A DNA stretch of 40,695 nt from a virus. Taxonomy: Duplodnaviria > Caudoviricetes. The notes under the pieces were generated by a model. That model made no database searches. It worked only from the letters and a program-made list of their open reading frames with translations, and was not told the origin of the DNA. Each line of letters starts with the position of its first letter. Positions within the stretch are counted from its first letter, which is position 1. Location of the stretch: positions 1 to 40,695 of IMG/VR virus record IMGVR_UViG_3300002301_000003; one strand, given 5' to 3'. Below, in pieces: positions 72-20,815 of this stretch. Made by a program: the position numbers and the translations under genes.

Positions 72-2248
72 AGGCAGAGGTCTACGCCGACTTGCAACGG
101 CGTATCGTAGGCAAGCACAAATTGGACGCGGCGCGCGCGGCAGCCGACCTCGCCAAGCATCAGCGCGTCGTGGGTAACGCCTCGGAAGAAGAACAGCGCG
201 CACTGATCCATTCGGTGGAGACGCGCAGTCAGGGCGGTGCGATGGGGATGGCGGGGCCGATGCGCCAAGCTGCCGACGCAATCCGCAAGGTCGCCACCGA
301 CTACAGGAGCCGCATCGAGGCGGTGATGCAGAAAGCTGGCAGCGAAGAGAATGTGCCGAAGTTCGTGCAGGACTACTACGTCCACCTGTGGAAGAACTCG
401 CCGAAAGAGGTCGAAGCGGCGATGATCAGCAAGCAGGGGTCTGGACGCAACCTCAAGAAGCGCAGCATCCCGACCTACGCCGAGGGCCTCGAAGCCGGGC
501 TGGTCCCGGTCCACGAGAACCCTCTCGACGCCATGACCGCCTACGTGGACAACATGAGCAGGTTCCTCGCAGCGCACGAGCTGCGCGGCGCGATGCACAA
601 GAGCGGCTTGGCCAAGTGGGAGTTCGAGAAGGCCGCAGAACCGGGCCGCATCAAGTTGAACGGTGGCCACACGGTGATCGACGCCATGCTGGAGCCGGGC
701 AAGGAGGGTGTGAGCCCCGACGACCTGCCCGCTCCCAAGATGATCCCTCGCCGCATCCTCACCGCTTCGCCAGAGGTGGCCAAGCGCTACAACGCCTTCG
801 TCGATCCGGGCCTCGCCACCAACCTGCGCCGGCAGGGGAAGAACAAGCGCGCCTTCGCAGTCGATGCAGGCAAGAAGGCTGGCGGCATGGTCGGCAACCT
901 GGCGCTGACCGGCTCCGGGTTCCACCCGGCGCTTGTCGCAGGCAAGGCTGTCGGCAGCGAACTTGCAGTTGGTGTGAACCACCTGCTGCGCGGGAGGCCC
1001 GCCGAAGCTGCCAAGACGCTGTGGTACGCGCCGACGGCCCCGGTGCGCGCGGCCTACGCTGGCCGGCAGATGGGCAAGCGGCTGCTCGAAGGCGACCACG
1101 CCATGACCGAGATTGACAACCTGTGGCGTGACGCGGGAAACCGCTTCAACAACGGGTCGGTCTACCGTGCGTCGATCCGCCCCAACTTCCTGACCTCCGG
1201 CCTGCGCGGGACGCTGCGCGGGGACATCAAGAGCGCACTCAAGGCCACGACGAGGGGCACCGCCGGGATGCGCGCTGCTGCCGTGGCTGATCTCGTCCCT
1301 CGCGCCTTGGAGACATTCAGCGCCCCGGTGTTCGACCACTATGTGCCTGCGATCAAACGCGGTGTGTTCGAGCGTGAGATGGGCGCAGAGCTGGAGGCCA
1401 ACCCGAACTGGACGGCGGCGGAGAAGCGCGCGGCGGCTCGGCGCATCTCGGACAACATTGACGGGCGTATGGGCGAGCTGTCCACTGACAACATCTTCTG
1501 GTCGCAGACGCGCACCGACGCCTTGCGGCTGGCTTTCCTGTCCCCCTCGTGGGCCTACGGCGACGTGCGACTGGTTCTCGACGCCATGCGTGACGCGCCC
1601 AAGAGCGTCACCGGGCTGTTCCAAGGCAAGGGTCTTGGCCACGGCACCGCAGCAGCGGTAGGGATCGTCAGCTCGTACTTCCTAATGAACGGCATCGCCA
1701 ACTACCTCTACACAGGCGAGCGACCCGAGGGTGAAGACTGGATCGCCTTCCGCACTGGCGGGACAGAGGCCGACGGCACACCCGAGCGGTCAGCCGTCCC
1801 GTCGGTGATGAAAGACTTCTTCGGGGCTATGCGCGATCCGGTTGGTGAAGCCGAGAACAAGCTGCACCCGCTGGGCCGCGCCGTCAGCGAGGTCGCCACC
1901 AACAAGGACTGGCGCGGGCTTCCCGTATACCGGCCAAACAATGTCGAGGAGGATGACCTCGACCAGATCAAGAACGACATCCCCGACAACCTCAAAGGCT
2001 CTCGTGTGGCCGCTGCGCTGAAACATCTGGGCGGAACCGTCGTGCCTTATGGGTTGCAGCCCAACGCCAACGGCGAGAACAGCAACATCTCTTGGGCCTC
2101 GAAGGTCGGATTAGGCTTGAAGCCTGCTGGCAAGCAGTTCACAGACCCCGAGAGCTACGAGGATTCGGCGAAGAAGCGCAGCATCCAAGCCGTATCAATT
2201 GAAGCCAGCGCCGAGGCCAAGGCAAAGGCGAGACAGGAGAAGCCGTGA
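2..2248 (+). CDS. C-terminal part of large ejection/internal virion protein (continues from 38583 across the junction; ~1429 aa total)
   Basis: The frame of ORF 56..2248 is open back to base 2 and in frame with the ATG-38583 ORF once the 71-bp overlap is removed; last gene of the ejection cluster. Confidence 0.85.
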   Translation, partial: PPSSTAPILRSAKALREAVSGGHEAEVYADLQRRIVGKHKLDAARAAADLAKHQRVVGNASEEEQRALIHSVETRSQGGAMGMAGPMRQAADAIRKVATDYRSRIEAVMQKAGSEENVPKFVQDYYVHLWKNSPKEVEAAMISKQGSGRNLKKRSIPTYAEGLEAGLVPVHENPLDAMTAYVDNMSRFLAAHELRGAMHKSGLAKWEFEKAAEPGRIKLNGGHTVIDAMLEPGKEGVSPDDLPAPKMIPRRILTASPEVAKRYNAFVDPGLATNLRRQGKNKRAFAVDAGKKAGGMVGNLALTGSGFHPALVAGKAVGSELAVGVNHLLRGRPAEAAKTLWYAPTAPVRAAYAGRQMGKRLLEGDHAMTEIDNLWRDAGNRFNNGSVYRASIRPNFLTSGLRGTLRGDIKSALKATTRGTAGMRAAAVADLVPRALETFSAPVFDHYVPAIKRGVFEREMGAELEANPNWTAAEKRAAARRISDNIDGRMGELSTDNIFWSQTRTDALRLAFLSPSWAYGDVRLVLDAMRDAPKSVTGLFQGKGLGHGTAAAVGIVSSYFLMNGIANYLYTGERPEGEDWIAFRTGGTEADGTPERSAVPSVMKDFFGAMRDPVGEAENKLHPLGRAVSEVATNKDWRGLPVYRPNNVEEDDLDQIKNDIPDNLKGSRVAAALKHLGGTVVPYGLQPNANGENSNISWASKVGLGLKPAGKQFTDPESYEDSAKKRSIQAVSIEASAEAKAKARQEKP

Positions 2249-3576
2249 GACTGTTACTCGTGGATAATGCGGGCCTCATGCTCGACTTCGCCCTGCGCTG
2301 CCAAGAGGCAGGTCATACGGTCAAGTGGTTCGTGCGCCCCAACCGCATGACTATGAACATCGGCAAGGGGCTGCTGGTCGGTCAGAGCGCACAGGTTCCC
2401 GACTGGCGCGAGTGGGCACGCTGGGCTGACCTCATCGTACTTCCCGACAATGTTCGATACCTCTACGACCTCGAACCCTACCGCAAGATGGGAGTGCCGA
2501 TTGTCGCGGCGACACCTGAGACGGCTGCGTGGGAGACCGACAGGCAGCTTGGCCAGAACCTGATGAAGAAGCGCGGGCTGGCCGTTCCCGACTGCAAAGA
2601 GTTCAAGCGCTACGACGAGGCCATTGCGTATGTGAAGAAGGAGGGCAGGGCCTTCGTCTGCAAGCCCTGCGGCGACGAGGAAGACAAGAGCCTGTCTTAT
2701 GTCAGTAAGTCACCTGCGGACCTCGTGTTCATGCTGGAGCGGTGGAAGAAGCAGCAGCGCCACAAGGGCAGCTTCATCCTGCAAGAGCGTGTAACCGGCT
2801 GCGAGATGGCCGTCGGAGGCTGGTTTGGGCCGGGCGGGTTCCTGCCCGGCTGGCATGAGAACTGGGAGTTCAAGAAGCTGATGGCCGGAGAGACTGGCCC
2901 GGCGACCGGCGAGATGGGCACCGTCGTCCGCAACGTCGCCAAGTCGAAGCTCGCGGACAAGGTGCTGGCTCCCTTCGAGGAGGACTTGCACAAGGCCGAG
3001 TATGTCGGCTACGTCGATGTCAACTGCATCATTGACGACGACGGCACCCCGTGGCCGCTGGAGTTCACGATGCGACCCGGCTGGCCCACCTTCAACATCC
3101 AGATGGCGATGCTGGCAAAAGGGAAGGACCCCGCAGAATGGTTACTGGACCTAGCCGAAGGCCGCACCGCAAGTCCCTTCTCCTCGAACGCCTTGGCGGT
3201 GGGGGTAGTGATGGTGATGCCGGACTTCCCGTACAGCCAGAACACCCGGACCGACGCGATGGGGATACCGATCTACGGCCTCAACAGCCGCAACCGGGCG
3301 AACGTACACCCCTGCGAACTACAGCAGGGGAAAGCGCCTCACGATCTAGATGGGAAGGTGGTGGAACTGCCATGTCTGACGAGCGCGGGAGATTATCTGC
3401 TGGTGGCGAGCGGGCTCGGGACCTCCGTGCGCGAAGCCCGCGCCAGAGCGTACCGAGTTCTGGAAGGACTGGAGGTGCCAAACAGTCCATTCTGGAGGCC
3501 CGACATAGGGCAGAGGCTCAAGAAGCAACTGCCAACGATGCAGAAGTTGGGCTACGCGACGGGCTTGCAATTTTAG
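2245..3576 (+). CDS. PurD (GAR synthetase)-like ATP-grasp ligase
   Basis: Motifs FVCKPCG, FILQERVTGCE, GETGPATGEMG (PurD GPNTGGMG), LEFTMRPGWP (PurD EFNARFGDP), FWRPDIG; GTGA overlap with upstream gene. Confidence 0.85.
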   Translation: MRLLLVDNAGLMLDFALRCQEAGHTVKWFVRPNRMTMNIGKGLLVGQSAQVPDWREWARWADLIVLPDNVRYLYDLEPYRKMGVPIVAATPETAAWETDRQLGQNLMKKRGLAVPDCKEFKRYDEAIAYVKKEGRAFVCKPCGDEEDKSLSYVSKSPADLVFMLERWKKQQRHKGSFILQERVTGCEMAVGGWFGPGGFLPGWHENWEFKKLMAGETGPATGEMGTVVRNVAKSKLADKVLAPFEEDLHKAEYVGYVDVNCIIDDDGTPWPLEFTMRPGWPTFNIQMAMLAKGKDPAEWLLDLAEGRTASPFSSNALAVGVVMVMPDFPYSQNTRTDAMGIPIYGLNSRNRANVHPCELQQGKAPHDLDGKVVELPCLTSAGDYLLVASGLGTSVREARARAYRVLEGLEVPNSPFWRPDIGQRLKKQLPTMQKLGYATGLQF

Positions 3577-3839: not shown

Positions 3840-4241
3840 GCGGTCCTCTACCAGTTTGGCGTAGCCCTGAACGTCATGCCAGTTGTCGATGTAGTCAGGG
3901 TCGCCGTTGGCGATCCTCGCCAGTTTGTCACAGATGGTCCGCAGCGCTTGCCGCTGGAAAGGCTGCATCCGATCCCAGCTTGTCGCGAACCGCCCGGCGA
4001 GGCTGTCGCCCATCATGACGCCGAGCAATGCGTCTGTGATCTTTGCGTGCTCAGTGAAGTCCCCATATCGGGCGCCGCGCTCTGCCAGAGTTGCGTCAAC
4101 TCCCGCTGGTATTTCGGGGGCTGGCCCCTCTTGAGCCGAAAAGGTCAGGCACGCCGCGCCACATGCGCACTCCGGGCAGCACCCTATGCCGTCGAACCAG
4201 AACCAGCCCCGGTGGCTCTCGCATTCGATACTGTCTCGCAT
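3828..4241 (-). CDS. DUF6378-like phage protein
   Basis: TLAERGARYGDF...KLARIANGDPDYIDNWHDVQGYAKLV; strong RBS AAGGAGG. Confidence 0.75.
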   Translation of the reverse strand: MRDSIECESHRGWFWFDGIGCCPECACGAACLTFSAQEGPAPEIPAGVDATLAERGARYGDFTEHAKITDALLGVMMGDSLAGRFATSWDRMQPFQRQALRTICDKLARIANGDPDYIDNWHDVQGYAKLVEDRLTK

Positions 4242-4288
4242 TTCATTCCTCCTTCATTGGTCGGTCGTCGATCAGGCCGTCTCTGCCA
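4166..4288. repeat. 123-bp direct repeat, copy A
   Basis: Matches 4920-5042 with one mismatch (C4231 vs A4985). Confidence 0.95.
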
Positions 4289-4514
4289 GTGTGCCTTCGA
4301 GGCCAGTGGGGAAATCTTCCACCATAAATCGCACCATTTCAGCAGCCTGTATCGCGTCCAAAAGATTTGTACCCATAGGCTCACGATAATACTGATGCTC
4401 CGTTCCACCATTGACGACGCGGTTAAATGATATGCCGTTGTCGGGATTGAATTTAGATGGCAGCTTCCACGCAAGGAAGCGGTCAACCATATGCTTGATT
4501 TGTTCATCCTGCAT
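4272..4514 (-). CDS. Hypothetical protein (80 aa) in inserted segment
   Basis: MQDEQIKHMVDRFLAWKLP...; AGGAG RBS upstream; stop codon lies within repeat copy A. Confidence 0.7.
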   Translation of the reverse strand: MQDEQIKHMVDRFLAWKLPSKFNPDNGISFNRVVNGGTEHQYYREPMGTNLLDAIQAAEMVRFMVEDFPTGLEGTLAETA

Positions 4515-4919: not shown

Positions 4920-5042
4920 CGCACTCCGGGCAGCACCCTATGCCGTCGAACCAGAACCAGCCCCGGTGGCTCTCGCATTCGATAATGTCTCGCATTTCAT
5001 TCCTCCTTCATTGGTCGGTCGTCGATCAGGCCGTCTCTGCCA
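4920..5042. repeat. 123-bp direct repeat, copy B
   Basis: Matches 4166-4288; covers the primase 3' end, an RBS and about 25 codons of the next gene. Confidence 0.95.
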
Positions 5043-6865
5043 TGTGGCATTCGAATAGACCCGAGGGCCAGTGCGTGGTCGATGCACTTATCAAAGGCTC
5101 GCGTTGCGTTGCCCCTGTCCGTTATCCCTGACACGTCTCCAAAGGCTGCGCGCACTGCGGCGCGGGGGACAGGCTCGCGGGCGCCGAGGTTCACCTTCAA
5201 CCGCGCCGTCTCGATAGCCAAGGCCAAGCGGTCATACTTCGGCGGCTCCTTGGTGGGAGGGGTGTAAACCTCTGAACTCATCGACACCTCGCAGGTCGTC
5301 TTGGCCCTGCCCCGCTTGTCGTGCCCGACAGTGATTGAAGCCAGCGTGAAAGCCCCCCACGATCCGGTGCGACCCTCGCGTGACTTGGTGCATTCCATGA
5401 ACCTAACGGGGCTCTTCCCATCCCAGAATATCTCCATCACCGTGTCAAAGCCCGCCGGCAGCGCACCGCCGCCGCGCGCGCCAGTACCGTTCTTCGGCGG
5501 GTGGTGGTTGACGACCACGAGGCAGTCAAAGCGCAGCGACAAGCCCTCTAGGGCTTTAACCGCCGCGCCGCATTCGGAGTTGTTGTTCTCGTCTTGCAGC
5601 AGGCCGACAGCCGTCAATGTGTCGATCACGATCACCCCTAACGGCACGCCGTGGACCAGCTCCATTTGAGCTTTGGCGTCCTCGATGTCAGCGACCAGCG
5701 CCTTGACGTTCTCAGCGTCCCCCAGCGACCCCGAAGGCAGCACGCCGATAGGAAGGTTCTTGAGAGCCTTCATCCGCTTGCGCGCGCCGCTCAGCCCCTC
5801 GCCGGCCAAGATCAGTGTGCCACAGCGGTAGTCGGGCTCCACACCGAAGAACTTGTCGCCCGTCGCCATGCAGCGGCCCAGCTCATAAGAGATGAATGTC
5901 TTGCCTGAGTTGGTCGGCGCGACGAGCATCGCGGTGCCACGGCGCGGCAGCCGCTCGAACAACGCCCACTCTTCGTCCTCGTCGTCGTCATCACCAGCCC
6001 AGATGATCTTGCCGCGCGGAGGCTTCGGCTTGTACTCTGGCGAGGGAACGTCAACGCCTGCGAAGTGAGCCTCTGGCGTGTCAGAGCCTGGCGGGTTCTG
6101 GCCATTGGTGTAGGCCGACGTGACCTTCGCCTCCAGACGCTCCGGCTCCCAAGGAGGGTCACAGCGGTCGTTGTAGTGCTCCAGCATAAGGTCGAGGCAG
6201 ACGCCATCAGACACGCCGAGGTCTTTGGCGCGGCACGCGGTGAGGTACGCTTGGTCGTCACCGCGCTCACCCTGAACGGCGGGCTTGGCGAAGTACGCGA
6301 GGTACTCGATCACGCGCTGGATGTTGGCCTCGGTATTGAGTTCGGCGACCGGCTGACGCGGATCAGCGGCAGGGTCTCTGGGCTTGCCGCACCGCTCGAC
6401 CAGTGCCTGCGGCGCTGGCAGAACAGGCAGGTCTTTGACGACGCGGTACTCGCCGGTCGGCAGCTTTGACCCGGCAGCGATGACGTAGCCGACCCCACTG
6501 ACGCGCACGTCGAGGCCCTCACCTATTGCGCGCTGGCTCACGCGGCCCGCATGGGCGTAGAAGTGGTGCAGACCTCCGTTCGGGGTGGCCGTCGTGTATG
6601 TCTCCGGGTCGATGTCGAGGAGGTCAAACTCGAAAGCCCCAGGCTTTCCGTCCTTGTTATCCTCATCGACGATGATCATGCCGTCGGCCACGACGCCGAT
6701 GTTGGCGTCGGGGGTGTCTCTCCACCACGCAGCGATCTGCCCCTCGTCCTGCGTGGCCTCAGCCTTCCAGCGGCAACCCTTGGCGGGCAGCTTGGTTAGA
6801 GGCTGGCAGGGAAACACTCGAAGGCCCATGCGGGACGCGGCCAGTGCGTGGTCGAGCATCGTCAT
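4997..6865 (-). CDS. Bifunctional primase/polymerase (Prim-Pol) fused to AAA_25/RecA-like helicase
   Basis: VFPC, ANIGV, IVDED, TPNGGLHHFY; Walker A APTNSGKT, Walker B IVIDT, NHHPPK; ATG 6865 overlaps the upstream stop. Confidence 0.9.
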   Translation of the reverse strand: MTMLDHALAASRMGLRVFPCQPLTKLPAKGCRWKAEATQDEGQIAAWWRDTPDANIGVVADGMIIVDEDNKDGKPGAFEFDLLDIDPETYTTATPNGGLHHFYAHAGRVSQRAIGEGLDVRVSGVGYVIAAGSKLPTGEYRVVKDLPVLPAPQALVERCGKPRDPAADPRQPVAELNTEANIQRVIEYLAYFAKPAVQGERGDDQAYLTACRAKDLGVSDGVCLDLMLEHYNDRCDPPWEPERLEAKVTSAYTNGQNPPGSDTPEAHFAGVDVPSPEYKPKPPRGKIIWAGDDDDEDEEWALFERLPRRGTAMLVAPTNSGKTFISYELGRCMATGDKFFGVEPDYRCGTLILAGEGLSGARKRMKALKNLPIGVLPSGSLGDAENVKALVADIEDAKAQMELVHGVPLGVIVIDTLTAVGLLQDENNNSECGAAVKALEGLSLRFDCLVVVNHHPPKNGTGARGGGALPAGFDTVMEIFWDGKSPVRFMECTKSREGRTGSWGAFTLASITVGHDKRGRAKTTCEVSMSSEVYTPPTKEPPKYDRLALAIETARLKVNLGAREPVPRAAVRAAFGDVSGITDRGNATRAFDKCIDHALALGSIRMPHGRDGLIDDRPMKEE

Positions 6866-14479: not shown

Positions 14480-14955
14480 ACCAAGCCCTCCTTGATTGCG
14501 TAGTGCCCGAGCAGCGCGGCTTCCGCCGCCCCGTCGTCTTTGGCGCGGGCAAAGAAGGTGTTGGCGTGCTGAGGCCAGCGTTCTCGCGCCATCACCAGTG
14601 ATTTCCGCTTGAAGCTGGCGACGCTCTCGCCGTACTCGCGGCGCAGCCCGAGACCACCTTTCCAGTCAACTGGCCGGACCAAGACGGGCTCGACATCAAG
14701 TGCAGCGCAGACCCCGAGCAACTCGCCGTAGGCCCTGCCAAAATTGAACGATGCGGGGCCAGACTGCCCCGGAGCGCCGTTGACCTGCTCGATCACGACG
14801 CGGCGGTGCTTGTATGCGACGAGCCGCTTGCAAAGGGCTCCGGGTGTAGCCGGCATTACGTTGTCCAGCCGGTCGCCAATGAAAAGCGCGATAGCGCCGG
14901 ACTTGCCTGGGTCAATAGCGAGTACCACCTGGGTCAAAACAGCCTCCCGAATCAC
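14476..14955 (-). CDS. RuvC-like Holliday junction resolvase
   Basis: LAIDPGKSGA, VVIEQV, SFNFG, PVDWK, DDGAAEAALL. Confidence 0.85.
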   Translation of the reverse strand: MIREAVLTQVVLAIDPGKSGAIALFIGDRLDNVMPATPGALCKRLVAYKHRRVVIEQVNGAPGQSGPASFNFGRAYGELLGVCAALDVEPVLVRPVDWKGGLGLRREYGESVASFKRKSLVMARERWPQHANTFFARAKDDGAAEAALLGHYAIKEGLV

Positions 14956-15005
14956 TTAGCCTTGTTTGGCACTATTTGGTGCGGTTTATAAATTGGAAAT
15001 TCCGA

Positions 15006-15419
15006 TTAGTTGCCTAACGCTTCTCGCACTACGTCGATTTGTCCGGCCAGTGCGTCGAGCAGTTTGTGCATTCTGGCGCGTTGGTCCTCGGTCAGCCGCT
15101 CAGGGACACGGCCCGCGCCTGTCGCCTGCACAGTGCTTTTAGGCATACCTATAGCCCGCCCAACGCTCTCGTTGGTGATCTTCATCTCAAAGAGCGCAGA
15201 GAGGGCGCCAAAGCTGGCGCGCTCGTCGCGGATCACCCACGCGGCCCTTTTGCGCACGGCCTTAACCCAAGCCGCGTCGCTGGTGTCATAGCCTTCGAGA
15301 TCGAGGATCAACTCGATTCCCGCGAGGTCTTGTTCTTTTGAGCGGTGGCTGCCGGGGATGCACTTGGCGACACGCTCGATCAGCGCGGCGGGCAGGTCTT
15401 GGGGGTCTGGATTTTTCAT
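15006..15419 (-). CDS. Hypothetical protein with possible HTH
   Basis: AGGAG RBS before ATG 15419; TNESVGRAIGMPKSTVQ resembles an HTH. Confidence 0.65.
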   Translation of the reverse strand: MKNPDPQDLPAALIERVAKCIPGSHRSKEQDLAGIELILDLEGYDTSDAAWVKAVRKRAAWVIRDERASFGALSALFEMKITNESVGRAIGMPKSTVQATGAGRVPERLTEDQRARMHKLLDALAGQIDVVREALGN

Positions 15420-15427
15420 GTATTCTC

Positions 15428-15586
15428 CTATTCGCAGTTCTGGCGGATGAAAGCCCGCCGGCATTCAATGTGCTTACGCTCGACGCCATGTCGGCCCTCG
15501 AACTTGCGTTCGATGAGGTCCCAGAGGCCAAAGCCCCGCCCGCTTTCGATCACGCGGTAACGCTGGTCAAATTCTTCTTTGGTCAC
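15428..15586 (-). CDS. Small hypothetical protein (52 aa; not in ORF track)
   Basis: AGGAG RBS, GTG start, MTKEEFDQRYRVIESGRGFGLWDL...RQNCE. Confidence 0.65.
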   Translation of the reverse strand: MTKEEFDQRYRVIESGRGFGLWDLIERKFEGRHGVERKHIECRRAFIRQNCE

Positions 15587-15595
15587 GACGATCTC

Positions 15596-15652
15596 CTAAT
15601 GCCAATGCGCCCCCGGCAACCGGCTTCGGCTCCGGGGGCGGTAAGGCATCAG
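15596..15652 (-). promoter_or_regulatory. Intergenic long hairpin 1 (putative RNA processing site)
   Basis: CTGATGCC-ttac-CGCCCCCGG...CCGGGGGCG-catt-GGCATTAG; shares a 37-bp repeat (34/37) with 16378-16414. Confidence 0.65.
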
Positions 15653-16251
15653 GGCTTCGCAGGGGCTTGCAGGAACCTTTCGCGGACGTACTCGCCAGAG
15701 CCTTTCCGAACAGGCATGACTACCCCCAAGCAGTCAGTGCGCCCATCGAACATGAAAGCGCAAGGCCCCGTCGCGTCCTGCCACACCTCGAAAGCATTGA
15801 CGCTGTTCTTACCCTTGCCTGCAATCAGGACGGCCATTTTGCCCATGGTGGCGTAGTGGGTGGGGTCGAACTTGGCTGGCGTTTCCTCGGCTGGGCCCGA
15901 AGGTATGACCCTCGTCCAGTCTGGGAAGGTGCCGTCAACCGGCGTGAACCAGGTTTCATTGGCGCCGCGCGCCAAGCCCCAGCGCTCGCCGTCCACGCTT
16001 GGTTCGCTCACGTAGTAATCGACGCCCTTCCCCTTGACCACCAAGTCCAGCGCCGCGCGCGGGATGATAATGGGCTCTTTGAGGACCACAAGGTATTCCA
16101 CCACGGCGGCGAACATAATGTGGCCATTGGTGGCCACTACATAGCCGGCGGGGTCTAAAAACACGCCGTTCAGGTAGTAGCGCGTTTCATCTGGGGACAC
16201 GGCTAGGCGCGCGCAGTCCATAAACGCGGCGGGAATAACAAATTCGGTCAT
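15649..16251 (-). CDS. DNA polymerase III beta-clamp-like protein (short, 200 aa)
   Basis: DETRYYLNGVFL, VATNGH, IIIPR, VDGTFPDWTRVIP, GVVMPVR match DnaN motifs. Confidence 0.8.
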   Translation of the reverse strand: MTEFVIPAAFMDCARLAVSPDETRYYLNGVFLDPAGYVVATNGHIMFAAVVEYLVVLKEPIIIPRAALDLVVKGKGVDYYVSEPSVDGERWGLARGANETWFTPVDGTFPDWTRVIPSGPAEETPAKFDPTHYATMGKMAVLIAGKGKNSVNAFEVWQDATGPCAFMFDGRTDCLGVVMPVRKGSGEYVRERFLQAPAKP

Positions 16252-16263
16252 TGTTTGATCTTT

Positions 16264-16338
16264 CTAGTCTGGCTGCCCTCATCAGCGCCAACCTGCCAAG
16301 GTTGACGGACGCCTCACGGCGTTTCGGCTTTAATCTAG
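16264..16338 (-). ncRNA. Type II hammerhead ribozyme
   Basis: GCC-GAAA-CGCC(GTGA)GGCG-TC^-CGTCAACCT(TGGC)AGGTTGGCG-CTGATGA-GGGC-AGCCAGA; predicted cleavage between 16308 and 16307. Confidence 0.85.
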
Positions 16339-16368
16339 GCACAGAAGGCCGTCATCACCGACATAAAG

Positions 16369-16414
16369 GCTTTGCGACCCCGGCAACCTGCTCCGGCTCC
16401 GGGGGCGGTAAAGC
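16369..16414 (-). promoter_or_regulatory. Intergenic hairpin 2
   Basis: GCTTT...CCCCGG...CCGGGG...AAAGC; near copy of hairpin 1. Confidence 0.6.
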
Positions 16415-16415
16415 G

Positions 16416-16658
16416 TTAGGCGGTGGCGTCGGTACTGGCAGGGCCTAGCAAGGCGGCTTGACCGCCTAGCGCCTCTAACGTGCGCGCCGTTATGTAGGTG
16501 AAGACACCTCCGGCTGCGCGTGCGTTCGGCTCGTGGTAATAGGTTTCCCAACCTTTGCCCCCGCGCCGAACGCGCATGGTGTAGGATGTCTTTCCGGCCT
16601 GCGCGTGAACGACATATTCGCCAGGTTTAAATCCGCTTTTGTCAATCAGTCGGTGCAT
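16416..16658 (-). CDS. Early hypothetical protein (80 aa)
   Basis: GGAG RBS; bounded by hairpins. Confidence 0.7.
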   Translation of the reverse strand: MHRLIDKSGFKPGEYVVHAQAGKTSYTMRVRRGGKGWETYYHEPNARAAGGVFTYITARTLEALGGQAALLGPASTDATA

Positions 16659-16679
16659 GGTCGCTTCTCCGTTTGTGGC

Positions 16680-16737
16680 CTAGTGCCATCATCGCCCCGC
16701 GCCGCAAATTAAGTGACGCGGGGCAAGGGGGCATTAG
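16680..16737 (-). promoter_or_regulatory. Intergenic hairpin 3
   Basis: CTAATGCC..GCCCCGCGTC..GGCGCGGGGC..GGCACTAG. Confidence 0.6.
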
Positions 16738-16991
16738 GGCAGCAACGCGACGCATTCGCCGGTTTGGAGCCAGTGGGCGCGCTGAAGAAAAGTAAGCGAA
16801 AAACGTTCGCAGGTCATGGCGTCCCGGATTGCCGACTCCTGCCATGCGACATAAGAGTCGAGATCGTTGACGTGCTGCCTCCCCTCGGTTGCGTCGGATA
16901 TGCACCTCCGGGATATATCGGCGAAGTGCTCCCGCGTCAGGGCTATAGTTTCCGGTGTAAGGGCCACGCCGGCAAAGCTAGGGTTAATCAT
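16734..16991 (-). CDS. Early hypothetical protein
   Basis: ATG 16991 overlaps the upstream stop; ends QTGECVALLP. Confidence 0.7.
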   Translation of the reverse strand: MINPSFAGVALTPETIALTREHFADISRRCISDATEGRQHVNDLDSYVAWQESAIRDAMTCERFSLTFLQRAHWLQTGECVALLP

Positions 16992-17113
16992 TGCGGATTC
17001 CAATCGTTAAGGCGGCACTGTTCATCGTTGCCGCACGTTGCATTCGTATCGGCGCATATGCTGGCCAGTATGACACCGGCCAGTAGTGCGAGGGCGAAGA
17101 TAAGGGCGCGCAC
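16988..17113 (-). CDS. Small membrane or exported peptide (41 aa)
   Basis: GTG 17113 with GGAG RBS; hydrophobic N-terminus RALIFALALLAGVILASI; three Cys. Confidence 0.55.
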   Translation of the reverse strand: MRALIFALALLAGVILASICADTNATCGNDEQCRLNDWNPQ

Positions 17114-17829
17114 TATTCGGGCTCCACCGTGAACCCAAGGGCACGCAATATGCGATAAGACGCCCGCACCCCATTGTTTGTATTCTGGCGCTGCCATGCC
17201 CCCTCACGCGGCGACCAGCGGAACGCCTCGCGCTTCAATGCCGCGATGGTTTCCGCATCGGGCTTGCCGTCGAAAAGCAACTGAACGCGGTCCAACGTGG
17301 TGTTCTGCACCAGCTTTACGCCGGGGAACTCGATTGTGCGATGTTCGGTCGATGCTGATACCTCAGCCAGCGCAGACTTTTCAGCGCGGCGCTCTTGGCG
17401 GTGGAACCACGCGGCCCAGTCCCTACCATACCCGAGCAGCTCATCTAACCGCTTATGCTCCACATCCATCCGTTTTTGATTGCGGGCGACAGGGAAGTGA
17501 GCGGGGCCGGTGAGCATCCAATTGACGGTGCGCGATCCGGCTGACTGGAACGCCGCCCAGCGCTTTACGCAACCTGCAACCCACGCTTCGATTTGCTCCG
17601 GCGTCGCACCCATCACGGCCAGCTTTTCGCAGACCTCGGCAATAAGCGAGGCCCAATCGTTCAATGCGCCATGAGCCTGACGCTCGGGCGAAAACGTGCG
17701 TTGGCTAAACCATCCAACAAAGCGCCCGAAGTCGCCGCCAACAGAGGCAAGCAGGCGGTCGCGTATGATCGCAGTGCCATAGCCGCCAGCCGTCGCAGTG
17801 CCGCGCTCTTCATGTGCCAGTTTTGTCAT
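17113..17829 (-). CDS. Early protein resembling DUF3560/polyvalent-protein-associated domains
   Basis: GAGGAG RBS; MLTGPAHFP and RVQLLFDGKPDAETIAALKREAFRWSPREGAWQR motifs. Confidence 0.65.
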   Translation of the reverse strand: MTKLAHEERGTATAGGYGTAIIRDRLLASVGGDFGRFVGWFSQRTFSPERQAHGALNDWASLIAEVCEKLAVMGATPEQIEAWVAGCVKRWAAFQSAGSRTVNWMLTGPAHFPVARNQKRMDVEHKRLDELLGYGRDWAAWFHRQERRAEKSALAEVSASTEHRTIEFPGVKLVQNTTLDRVQLLFDGKPDAETIAALKREAFRWSPREGAWQRQNTNNGVRASYRILRALGFTVEPE

Positions 17830-17845
17830 TGTCTCAACTCCTCTT

Positions 17846-17895
17846 GCGTTGTCCAATGCGCCCTTGCCCGGCGGCAAGGGCGGTAGGGAGAGCGC
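17846..17895 (-). promoter_or_regulatory. Intergenic hairpin 4
   Basis: TCC-ctac-CGCCCTTGCC(gccg)GGCAAGGGCG-catt-GGA; same internal loop as hairpin 1. Confidence 0.65.
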
Positions 17896-17896
17896 G

Positions 17897-18238
17897 TTAG
17901 CGTGCCGGGCCTGGTGGGAATGTGACAGCTGAATTGCCGTAATAGTTTCCCGCCCGCCATTCGGTTTCTAGATCATCGCGCAACGCCTTTTGCACTTGAA
18001 TCCTATCGGCACGAGGGAATACGGAGCTCCATTTTTCACCCTCAAGGCAAAATTCAGCCACATAGGATCGTGCAGCCAGCTCGACTGCGTAGGCAAGGCC
18101 CTCAACCGCAAAATCGCTGACATAAGAGCCCTGCGCTATGCGCTTCTCGTATGCGCGGGCCATATGCTCCCGCGCTGCGCAGGAGCGCGCGCAAGAGGTT
18201 GTCGCCCAGATATAAAGCTCTTTTGCCGTATCGTTCAT
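17897..18238 (-). CDS. Early hypothetical protein (113 aa)
   Basis: GAGG RBS; bounded by hairpins. Confidence 0.75.
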   Translation of the reverse strand: MNDTAKELYIWATTSCARSCAAREHMARAYEKRIAQGSYVSDFAVEGLAYAVELAARSYVAEFCLEGEKWSSVFPRADRIQVQKALRDDLETEWRAGNYYGNSAVTFPPGPAR

Positions 18239-18251
18239 TTTTCAATCCTCT

Positions 18252-18308
18252 ACTAAGTTCACCTATGGGCTGGCGGGCTCCAATCGCCAGCCCCAAGGAA
18301 AGCCTAGT
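18252..18308 (-). promoter_or_regulatory. Intergenic hairpin 5
   Basis: GGGCTGGCG...CGCCAGCCC core with extended flanking pairing. Confidence 0.55.
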
Positions 18309-18316
18309 TTAATCGT

Positions 18317-18505
18317 TCAATCCTCCACTGTCCAAGTGGCGCGATAGCCGAAAGAGGTGCGCTCCGCTTTTTGCTGATCCGGCCCCAGACGCGCAGCACA
18401 AAACTTTACGCGCCAGTCGCTCATCTCGTGCCTCTTGCCGTCAATGAAATAGCGGAAGCGATAGACGCCTCCCCAACGCGATGATGTCTTAACAAATTTG
18501 CGCAC
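18317..18505 (-). CDS. Early basic hypothetical protein (62 aa)
   Basis: AGGA RBS and GTG start. Confidence 0.65.
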   Translation of the reverse strand: MRKFVKTSSRWGGVYRFRYFIDGKRHEMSDWRVKFCAARLGPDQQKAERTSFGYRATWTVED

Positions 18506-18680: not shown

Positions 18681-18708
18681 TTTCTAGTCATGCGGCTAGG
18701 ATTGTCAA
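18681..18708 (-). promoter_or_regulatory. Putative sigma70 early promoter
   Basis: TTGACA-N16-TAGAAA with an upstream T tract, just before the first leftward gene. Confidence 0.65.
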
Positions 18709-18880: not shown

Positions 18881-18900
18881 GGGGCAGCATCCTGGGCGGT

Positions 18901-18985
18901 GAGGTTAGGCATTTGCCCATGGGGGTCGTCGAGGCTAGGCATTTGCCCATGGGGGTCGTCGAGGCTAGGCATTTGCCTATGGGAG
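18901..18985. repeat. 30-bp tandem repeat, about 2.8 copies
   Basis: Unit GAGGYTAGGCATTTGCCCATGGGGGTCGTC. Confidence 0.9.
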
Positions 18986-20438: not shown

Positions 20439-20815
20439 CCTACATCGTCGCATCCCTTGCCATCGCCACATTGCGAGGCGTCGAGCGCGCCCTTCGGGGT
20501 GGCCAGGCTGTCAACCCCGCCGCGCTTGGCGCTGTGAACTCTGGCCTCTCTGGTCTCGCCGCCCGAGGCACCGAGCCGACCGCAGCAGAGGTCGAAGCGG
20601 TCAGCGCCGCGATGCGCAACCTGAGTGTGGCCGAACCTGCGGCCGAGCCGACCGCAGCACAGGCCGAAGCGGTCGGCGCCGCGATCGACAACCTGACTGC
20701 GGCCGAACCTGCGGCCGAACCTGCGGCCGAACCTGCGGCCGAACCTGCGGCCGAACCTGCGGCCGAACCTGCGGCCGAACCCGTGGTGGTAGATGCCCCT
20801 CAATCCGCCACTTAA
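20435..20815 (+). CDS. Hypothetical protein with (AAEP)7 repeat
   Basis: ATGA coupling; internal EPTAA duplication. Confidence 0.65.
20698..20781. repeat. Perfect 12-bp tandem repeat x7
   Basis: Unit TGCGGCCGAACC. Confidence 0.95.

What the first reader, a model, noticed from the sequence alone, without database searches (positions are those of the whole stretch)
16264..16338. Self-cleaving hammerhead ribozyme (type II) in the early transcript
Seen on the coding (-) strand: all core elements in type II order. These are GAAA, stem III ACGCC/GGCGU with a GUGA tetraloop, the GUC cleavage triplet, a 9-bp stem I and CUGAUGA. A short stem II (GGGC with GCC) has one extra G, plus distal CUAG/CUAG pairing. 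Loop I UGGC is complementary to GCCA just 3' of stem II, giving a plausible pseudoknot. Cleavage would leave a 56-nt leader on the clamp-like gene. Known: hammerheads occur in some phage intergenic regions, but their role is poorly understood. Inference: host-independent mRNA processing that gives a 5'-OH, possibly stabilised, transcript.
Basis: partly seen in the sequence, partly recalled or inferred. Interest (0 to 1): 0.85.

Follow-up and report, generated by a model that had tools for sequence, protein, structure and literature searches.

The report
Phage type II hammerhead ribozyme
A small self-cutting RNA motif (a type II hammerhead ribozyme) sits just in front of a sliding-clamp-like gene of an uncultured phage and likely cuts the long early transcript into separate messages; such elements have been known in phages since 2011, and this copy probably came in with a gene that has since been almost entirely deleted.

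Summary
Observation confirmed: Rfam RF02276 (Hammerhead_II) matches 16329-16267 (-) at 45.2 bits against a cut-off of 37. It is the only match in this complete 40.7-kb phage. The core is intact, and a cut after C16308 would leave a 56-nt leader.

It is an ordinary member of a common phage family. Among 111 look-alikes the median leader is 58 nt, the loop I/tail pseudoknot covaries (77 of 111, against 22 with swapped tails), and the motif abuts the upstream stop codon (61 of 76). Perreault 2011 described this class, context and proposed role, and this scan has noted it on other DNA (54 findings).

It is not specific to the clamp-like gene: 3 of 48 homolog loci carry it upstream, and the syntenic relative lacks it.

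New local detail: the ~17 codons before the ribozyme match the C-terminus and stop codon of a widespread phage protein family, so it probably trailed a now-deleted gene. An extra G and a competing upstream helix may slow cleavage. Cleavage and 5'-OH stabilisation are untested.

The parts
18681..18708 (-). Promoter-like site (TTGACA, 16 nt, TAGAAA) at the head of the leftward early operon, about 2.4 kb upstream of the cut site
   Evidence: Seen by eye; same layout in relative L308. Not flagged by the consensus scan. Function inferred.
16416..16658 (-). Upstream 80-aa ORF of unknown function; its stop lies 87 nt before stem II
   Evidence: no PHROG, Pfam or NCBIfam hit; homolog in L308 in the same position
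16373..16410 (-). GC-rich intergenic hairpin, one of three related copies (also 17885-17857 and 15643-15606), each after a stop codon
   Evidence: Repeat D9, 82% over 57 nt; folds and third copy
16330..16383 (-). Probable remnant of a deleted gene: about 17 codons ending ...YVGDDGLLCLD plus TAA, one base before stem II
   Evidence: Profile of the last columns of 66 family members scores 24.2 bits; next best in the window 15.5, best of 100 shuffled windows 16.9, best in 673 kb of other phage DNA 16.1. Not detected by the full-length HMM.
16267..16329 (-). Type II hammerhead ribozyme; predicted cut between 16308 and 16307
   Evidence: Rfam RF02276, 45.2 bits, cut-off 37, E 3.1e-6; only match in the genome
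16270..16298 (-). Pseudoknot between loop I UGGC (16298-16295) and tail GCCA (16273-16270)
   Evidence: Sequence; covariation in look-alikes, and the same register as the commonest class
16260..16265 (-). Shine-Dalgarno-like AGAAAG, 8 nt before the ATG
   Evidence: Sequence; role inferred
15649..16251 (-). 200-aa protein resembling the central domain of the bacterial beta sliding clamp (a partial clamp, not a full DnaN)
   Evidence: PDB beta clamps, best E 1.3e-8 over residues 10-120; phrog_947 E 2.7e-16; TIGR00663 27.5 bits, far below its cut-off of 137.65. The best PHROG (phrog_3007) is labelled RusA-like, which the PDB hits do not support.

Best explanation
This is a type II hammerhead ribozyme in an intergenic gap of a phage early operon, predicted to cut its own RNA after GUC at 16308 and so likely to split the long early transcript without any protein. 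Shown: an intact core, three stems, the family match, and the family-typical geometry (leader length, pseudoknot register). Inferred from known hammerhead chemistry: stems III and I fold locally, the loop I/tail pseudoknot holds the short stem II in place, and cleavage leaves a 2',3'-cyclic phosphate upstream and a 5'-OH message downstream. That message starts with half of stem I and has a 56-nt leader, the SD and the clamp-like gene. The role is generic punctuation between small early genes, not control of this gene. Inferred history: the ribozyme arrived attached to the stop codon of another early gene, which was then deleted except for about 17 codons, with the junction in the 3' arm of the phage's own intergenic hairpin. 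Cleavage is probably slower than in typical members because of the extra G and a competing upstream helix.
For: Rfam hit above cut-off. Among 111 distinct look-alikes from viral contigs: leader median 58 nt, IQR 52-63 (n = 100 of 111 with a start found). Watson-Crick pseudoknot of 4 or more pairs in 77 of 111, against 22 +/- 4 (max 33) in 500 tail swaps. Register 4 in 52 of those 77, and 4 here. Upstream ORF stop within 3 nt of stem II in 61 of 76 with enough flank, against 2.4% at random positions. Two or more copies in 26 of 80 loci (two pairs of loci share a contig). Downstream genes are mixed: 10 of 63 have a PHROG hit, none a clamp. L041 has 8 copies (7 by Rfam, 7 by descriptor, union 8), one before each small gene including a clamp-like gene and ardA. 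Perreault 2011 showed cleavage of such phage arrays in vitro and in E. coli, and 14 of 18 consensus hammerheads tested were active. Remnant; L184 has a full gene of that family followed directly by a type II hammerhead.
Against: No cleavage or RNA data for this copy. Nearest-neighbour folding puts the ribozyme fold 6-8 kcal/mol above a fold in which upstream bases pair with the stem II 3' strand (pseudoknot and tertiary energy not counted; the 4-bp helix is worth roughly 4-8 kcal/mol). That penalty is in the upper fifth of the family (4-19 of 102 are worse, depending on flank). The extra G is rare (GGG in 2 of 111). A review reports that a G between A9 and G10.1 strongly harmed a viroid hammerhead (PMC3705267 passage). 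The closest relatives lack the element (0 of 5 records), so it is dispensable. The remnant was noticed post hoc, the full HMM does not report it at E 10, single-sequence tblastn gives E 0.28, and only 1 of 50 family records has a hammerhead right behind the gene.
Confidence: 0.6

Rival explanations
1. Decaying relic: the ribozyme was left behind when its upstream gene was deleted. The now untranslated remnant pairs with the stem II strand, and with the extra G this makes cleavage too slow to matter.
For: Probable gene remnant; stem II pairing probability near 0 in all folds with upstream sequence; folding penalty above the family median; G insertion harmful in a viroid hammerhead; absent from the syntenic relative L308.
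Against: Core, both long stems and the pseudoknot are intact, and the extra G keeps the commonest pseudoknot register. Natural copies with an extra U at this position occur in L018 and L184. Folding programs leave out pseudoknot and core energy, and typical members also carry a penalty (median about 4 kcal/mol).
Confidence: 0.25
2. Regulated switch for the clamp-like gene: the competing helix gates cleavage, and cleavage changes translation of the gene.
For: A competing fold exists. In 3 of the 4 clamp-homolog records that have any type II hammerhead, one lies directly before the clamp-like gene. A 9-codon ORF (16364-16335) crosses the competing strand (sequence).
Against: The energy to open the SD and start is unchanged by cleavage (4.3 against 4.2 kcal/mol). 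The competing strand is explained as leftover codons. 45 of 48 homolog loci and L308 have no such ribozyme upstream, and those that do fall in at least 3 separate places on the tree.
Confidence: 0.07
3. Cleavage is real, but its purpose is to speed decay (5'-OH entry for an RNase J type enzyme, or loss of protection of the upstream piece), as for glmS, not to release a stable message.
For: RNase J1 degrades the 5'-OH glmS product (PMC3997798 passage). The host is unknown.
Against: Arrays with one ribozyme before every early gene (L041) fit unit-length processing better than selective decay. The 3' product would begin with a hairpin.
Confidence: 0.08

Closest known systems
Type II hammerhead ribozymes of bacteria and prophages (Rfam RF02276; Perreault et al. 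2011, PMC3088659; read: passages, sections 6 and 8, part 1 of section 11; supplements not read)
   Same: Topology with stem II open, canonical core, short stem II, loop I/3'-tail pseudoknot, position between small phage genes, proposed processing of polycistronic RNA.
   Different: Single copy in the genome, not a cluster; extra G at the base of stem II; no intact gene directly upstream, only a probable remnant.
HHphage of haloviruses HF1/HF2 (same paper, discussion)
   Same: A hammerhead close upstream of a DNA-metabolism gene in an early polycistronic region; there a mapped 5' end lies within 3 nt of the cut site.
   Different: HHphage is a core variant in an archaeal virus; this copy has a canonical core and no mapped end.
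glmS ribozyme (PMC3997798 and PMC6765202, passages)
   Same: Self-cleavage in a 5' leader leaving a 5'-OH message.
   Different: Different fold, ligand-dependent, tied to one gene. Nothing here indicates a ligand or a fixed gene.
PK hammerhead crystal structure 8YDC (PMC11300833; abstract and part 1 of Results)
   Same: Same core, with G12 as base and G8 2'-OH as acid.
   Different: There the pseudoknot takes the place of helix II; here it joins loop I to the tail. Not the same architecture.

Membership tests
Hammerhead ribozyme type II (RF02276) | Covariance-model score above the gathering cut-off | tested here: met
   45.2 bits against 37, positions 1-66 of 66
Hammerhead ribozyme type II (RF02276) | Core C3-U4-G5-A6-N7-G8-A9, G12-A13-A14, A15.1-U16.1, H17 | tested here: met
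   CUGAUGA, GAAA, A16322-U16309, C16308
Hammerhead ribozyme type II (RF02276) | Stems I and III closed by loops, stem II open | tested here: met
   Stem III pair probabilities 0.82-1.0 and stem I 0.23-0.88 across contexts
Hammerhead ribozyme type II (RF02276) | Stem II with G10.1-C11.1 (two pairs suffice in nature) | tested here: inconclusive
   Two G-C pairs are possible in register, or three with one G bulged; but upstream sequence outcompetes it in nearest-neighbour folds
Hammerhead ribozyme type II (RF02276) | Loop I / 3'-tail pseudoknot of 4 or more pairs | tested here: met
   UGGC/GCCA in the modal register; covariation 77 of 111 against 22 +/- 4. Complementarity is shown, formation is not.
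Hammerhead ribozyme type II (RF02276) | Site-specific self-cleavage giving 2',3'-cyclic phosphate and 5'-OH | not testable with these tools
   Needs an in vitro assay or end mapping
Clustered hammerheads flanking phage genes (Perreault 2011, Fig. 3 legend and text) | Several ribozymes close together, flanking genes | tested here: not met
   One RF02276 match in the complete genome; one by descriptor; no other ribozyme family up to E 10
Gene-specific regulatory ribozyme (glmS-like) | Conserved position before one gene family | tested here: not met
   3 of 48 homolog loci; absent in syntenic L308; mixed downstream genes among look-alikes

The most novel reading that the evidence does not exclude
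Phage type II hammerheads are translation-coupled cutters. Because the stem II strand and GAAA start within 3 nt of the upstream stop codon (61 of 76 look-alikes), a terminating ribosome would cover the core or clear competing structure, so cleavage would report whether the upstream gene is being translated. This copy, whose upstream gene is reduced to an untranslated stub, would be a natural uncoupled control, and the stop-ribozyme-SD unit would be the joint at which early-gene cassettes are swapped.
Probability: 0.12. Interest if true: 0.65.

Novelty: new member of a known kind. Interest (0 to 1): 0.22.

Why it matters
As a single element it adds one more example to a class known since 2011. 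The purpose of phage ribozymes is still open: a 2019 review calls bacterial ribozyme roles largely elusive (PMC6765202 passage). This phage has no known host, so it does not make the question easier to test than cultured phages do. Two by-products are of modest use. First, these ribozymes start at the upstream stop codon in 61 of 76 cases, which I did not find described (searches; closed-access papers and supplements not covered). Second, this locus seems to record the loss of a gene with retention of its ribozyme.

Tried and rejected
No RNA holder listed for 14500-18500, so expression and the cut site could not be examined; the two DNA runs are contigs and one may be the source of the window. 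An exact search for the intergenic hairpin in viral contigs found 0; a look-up among earlier findings found none. blastn of the gap against GenBank phages gave only weak short matches, best E 0.2. DNA polymerase relatives are about 35% identical or less and do not name a host. The promoter/terminator scan found no more sites than shuffles. My descriptor misses copies with an extra U after A9 (L018, L184), and Rfam at the gathering cut-off found only L041 among 48 loci; the whole-record search at E 0.001 is the better count. The full-length HMM of the deleted gene's family did not report the remnant. The first profile (32.1 bits) used 32 of 67 members chosen for having the motif and is biased; one search repeats it on all 66 aligned members. 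Cleavage-gated translation: no change in SD access. Distal CUAG pairing: context-dependent. The pair count on the 10-sequence alignment was not completed. The tree left out L046-L049 and one short row; the window's branch is long and its place unsure.

Full report
Setting. The window is a complete phage record with direct terminal repeats, 63% G+C. It has a leftward block of early and replication genes (resolvase, helicase, exonuclease, DNA polymerase, primase) and a rightward lysis and virion block. The host is unknown: polymerase relatives are about 35% identical or less. A promoter-like site at 18708-18681 heads the leftward block and has a counterpart in relative L308; the consensus scan did not flag it.

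Observation. RF02276 matches 16329-16267 on the - strand over its whole length, at 45.2 bits against a cut-off of 37. It is the only match in the genome. The downstream gene resembles the central domain of bacterial beta clamps (PDB best E 1.3e-8) but is far below the DnaN cut-off.

How typical is it? A strict pattern taken from this copy hits 124 listed stretches of viral contigs, about 170 in all, giving 111 distinct copies. The pattern fixes stem III and the core, so those columns say nothing; loop I, stem I, the tail and the flanks were free. The median leader is 58 nt (100 of 111 with a start found). A pseudoknot of 4 or more Watson-Crick pairs is possible in 77 of 111, against 22 +/- 4 when tails are swapped. 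The register (stem I side minus stem II side) is 4 in 52 of 77 and 4 here, so the extra G keeps the usual geometry for a 9-bp stem I. An upstream ORF stops within 3 nt of stem II in 61 of 76 copies with enough flank (2.4% at random positions), and 26 of 80 loci hold two or more copies. The genes that follow are mixed and mostly unknown (10 of 63 with a PHROG hit, no clamp).

Is it tied to the clamp-like gene? No fixed link. Of 48 records with a homolog, 4 have any RF02276 match at E 0.001. In 3 of them (L018, L041, L044) one lies directly upstream. L041 and L044 are near kin, and L041 carries 8 copies, one before each small gene, including ardA. On a protein tree the four carriers need at least 3 changes, and 50 of 500 shuffles are as low. 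The syntenic relative L308 has the same upstream gene and the clamp-like gene, with a 68-nt gap and no ribozyme; 0 of 5 related records match RF02276. For a mild link: 3 of the 4 records with any copy have one before this gene.

Why is the upstream stop 87 nt away here? A TAA does lie one base before stem II, and the frame before it reads ...GSQSLYVGDDGLLCLD. I recalled a phage protein family ending this way (recall, no name from any call) and tested it. A pattern search gave 52 stretches; one, L184, is a full gene of such a family followed directly by a type II hammerhead. Its relatives (79 loci) end in a consensus YGEVDLYVGDDGLVYLS plus stop. A profile of these columns from all 66 aligned members scores the window site 24.2 bits: next best 15.5, best of 100 shuffles 16.9, best in 673 kb of other phage DNA 16.1. 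The stop falls at the consensus position. Against: the full HMM does not report it, tblastn gives E 0.28, and only 1 of 50 family records searched (of 79 loci) has a hammerhead right behind the gene. The match begins inside the 3' arm of a GC-rich hairpin of which the early operon has three related copies. I infer a deletion from that hairpin into the last codons of the gene.

Does it cut? Untested. For: the core and pseudoknot are intact, and 14 of 18 consensus hammerheads were active in Perreault's tests. Against: upstream bases pair with the stem II 3' strand in nearest-neighbour folds, 6-8 kcal/mol below the ribozyme fold before pseudoknot and tertiary terms, with 4-19 of 102 family members worse depending on flank. 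A review reports that a G inserted between A9 and G10.1 harmed a viroid hammerhead, while U helped (PMC3705267, passage only; the primary paper not seen). L018 and L184 carry an extra U at this place. Cleavage does not change predicted access to the SD. I put meaningful cleavage at about 0.7.

Mechanism. Most likely constitutive, protein-free cutting of the early polycistronic RNA, releasing a 5'-OH message for the clamp-like gene and what follows. Whether that end stabilises is open. RNase E is stimulated by a 5'-monophosphate, which this end lacks (inference), but RNase J1 attacks the 5'-OH glmS product.

Prior knowledge. Perreault et al. 2011 described type II hammerheads, the pseudoknot, clusters flanking prophage genes of changing identity, the ardA link, activity in vitro and in E. 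coli, and the processing hypothesis. A 2019 review repeats the hypothesis and calls the role unresolved. This scan holds 54 findings with these words in at least 53 genomes; these are leads, not support. Searches for the stop-codon adjacency or cassette exchange found nothing relevant (search listings only).

Verdict. Real, correctly identified, a new member of a known kind in a known context. Interest 0.22.

Noticed in passing
window 17885-17857, 16410-16373, 15643-15606 (-); also 18319-18236 and 16738-16656: GC-rich hairpins between stop codon and SD at most early gene boundaries. Three share TACCGCCC...GGG.CGCA; in the copy after the clamp-like gene the base of the stem includes the stop codon and the next SD. 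Candidates for RNase III sites or stabilisers.
   Followed up: partly
L041:1858-5060: Array of 8 type II hammerheads, one in each gap between small early genes, including a clamp-like gene and ardA.
   Followed up: partly
L018:2911-2979 and L184, just behind the stop at 1513 (-): Type II hammerheads with an extra U after A9.
   Followed up: partly
window 2245-3576 (+): 443-aa ATP-grasp protein resembling PurD/GARS (Pfam GARS_A above cut-off, TIGR00877 below) at the end of the virion block.
   Followed up: no
window 4166-4300 and 4920-5054: 135-nt direct repeat, 96% identical, containing an SD and start-like sequence and flanking two small genes; looks like a recent duplication or cassette insertion.
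   Followed up: no
window 18894-18983: Three 30-nt tandem repeats in the gap between the divergent gene blocks; L308 has repeats in the same gap. Possible origin or operator region.
   Followed up: no
window 20571-20798: 12-nt and 72-nt tandem repeats in the small gene before the endolysin.
   Followed up: no
window 15649-16251 (-): Stand-alone partial beta-clamp proteins are common in viral contigs (48 loci); the PHROG label 'RusA-like' for phrog_3007 looks doubtful given the PDB hits.
   Followed up: partly
window 16364-16335 (-): A 9-codon ORF without a clear SD crosses the strand that competes with stem II; probably chance.
   Followed up: no
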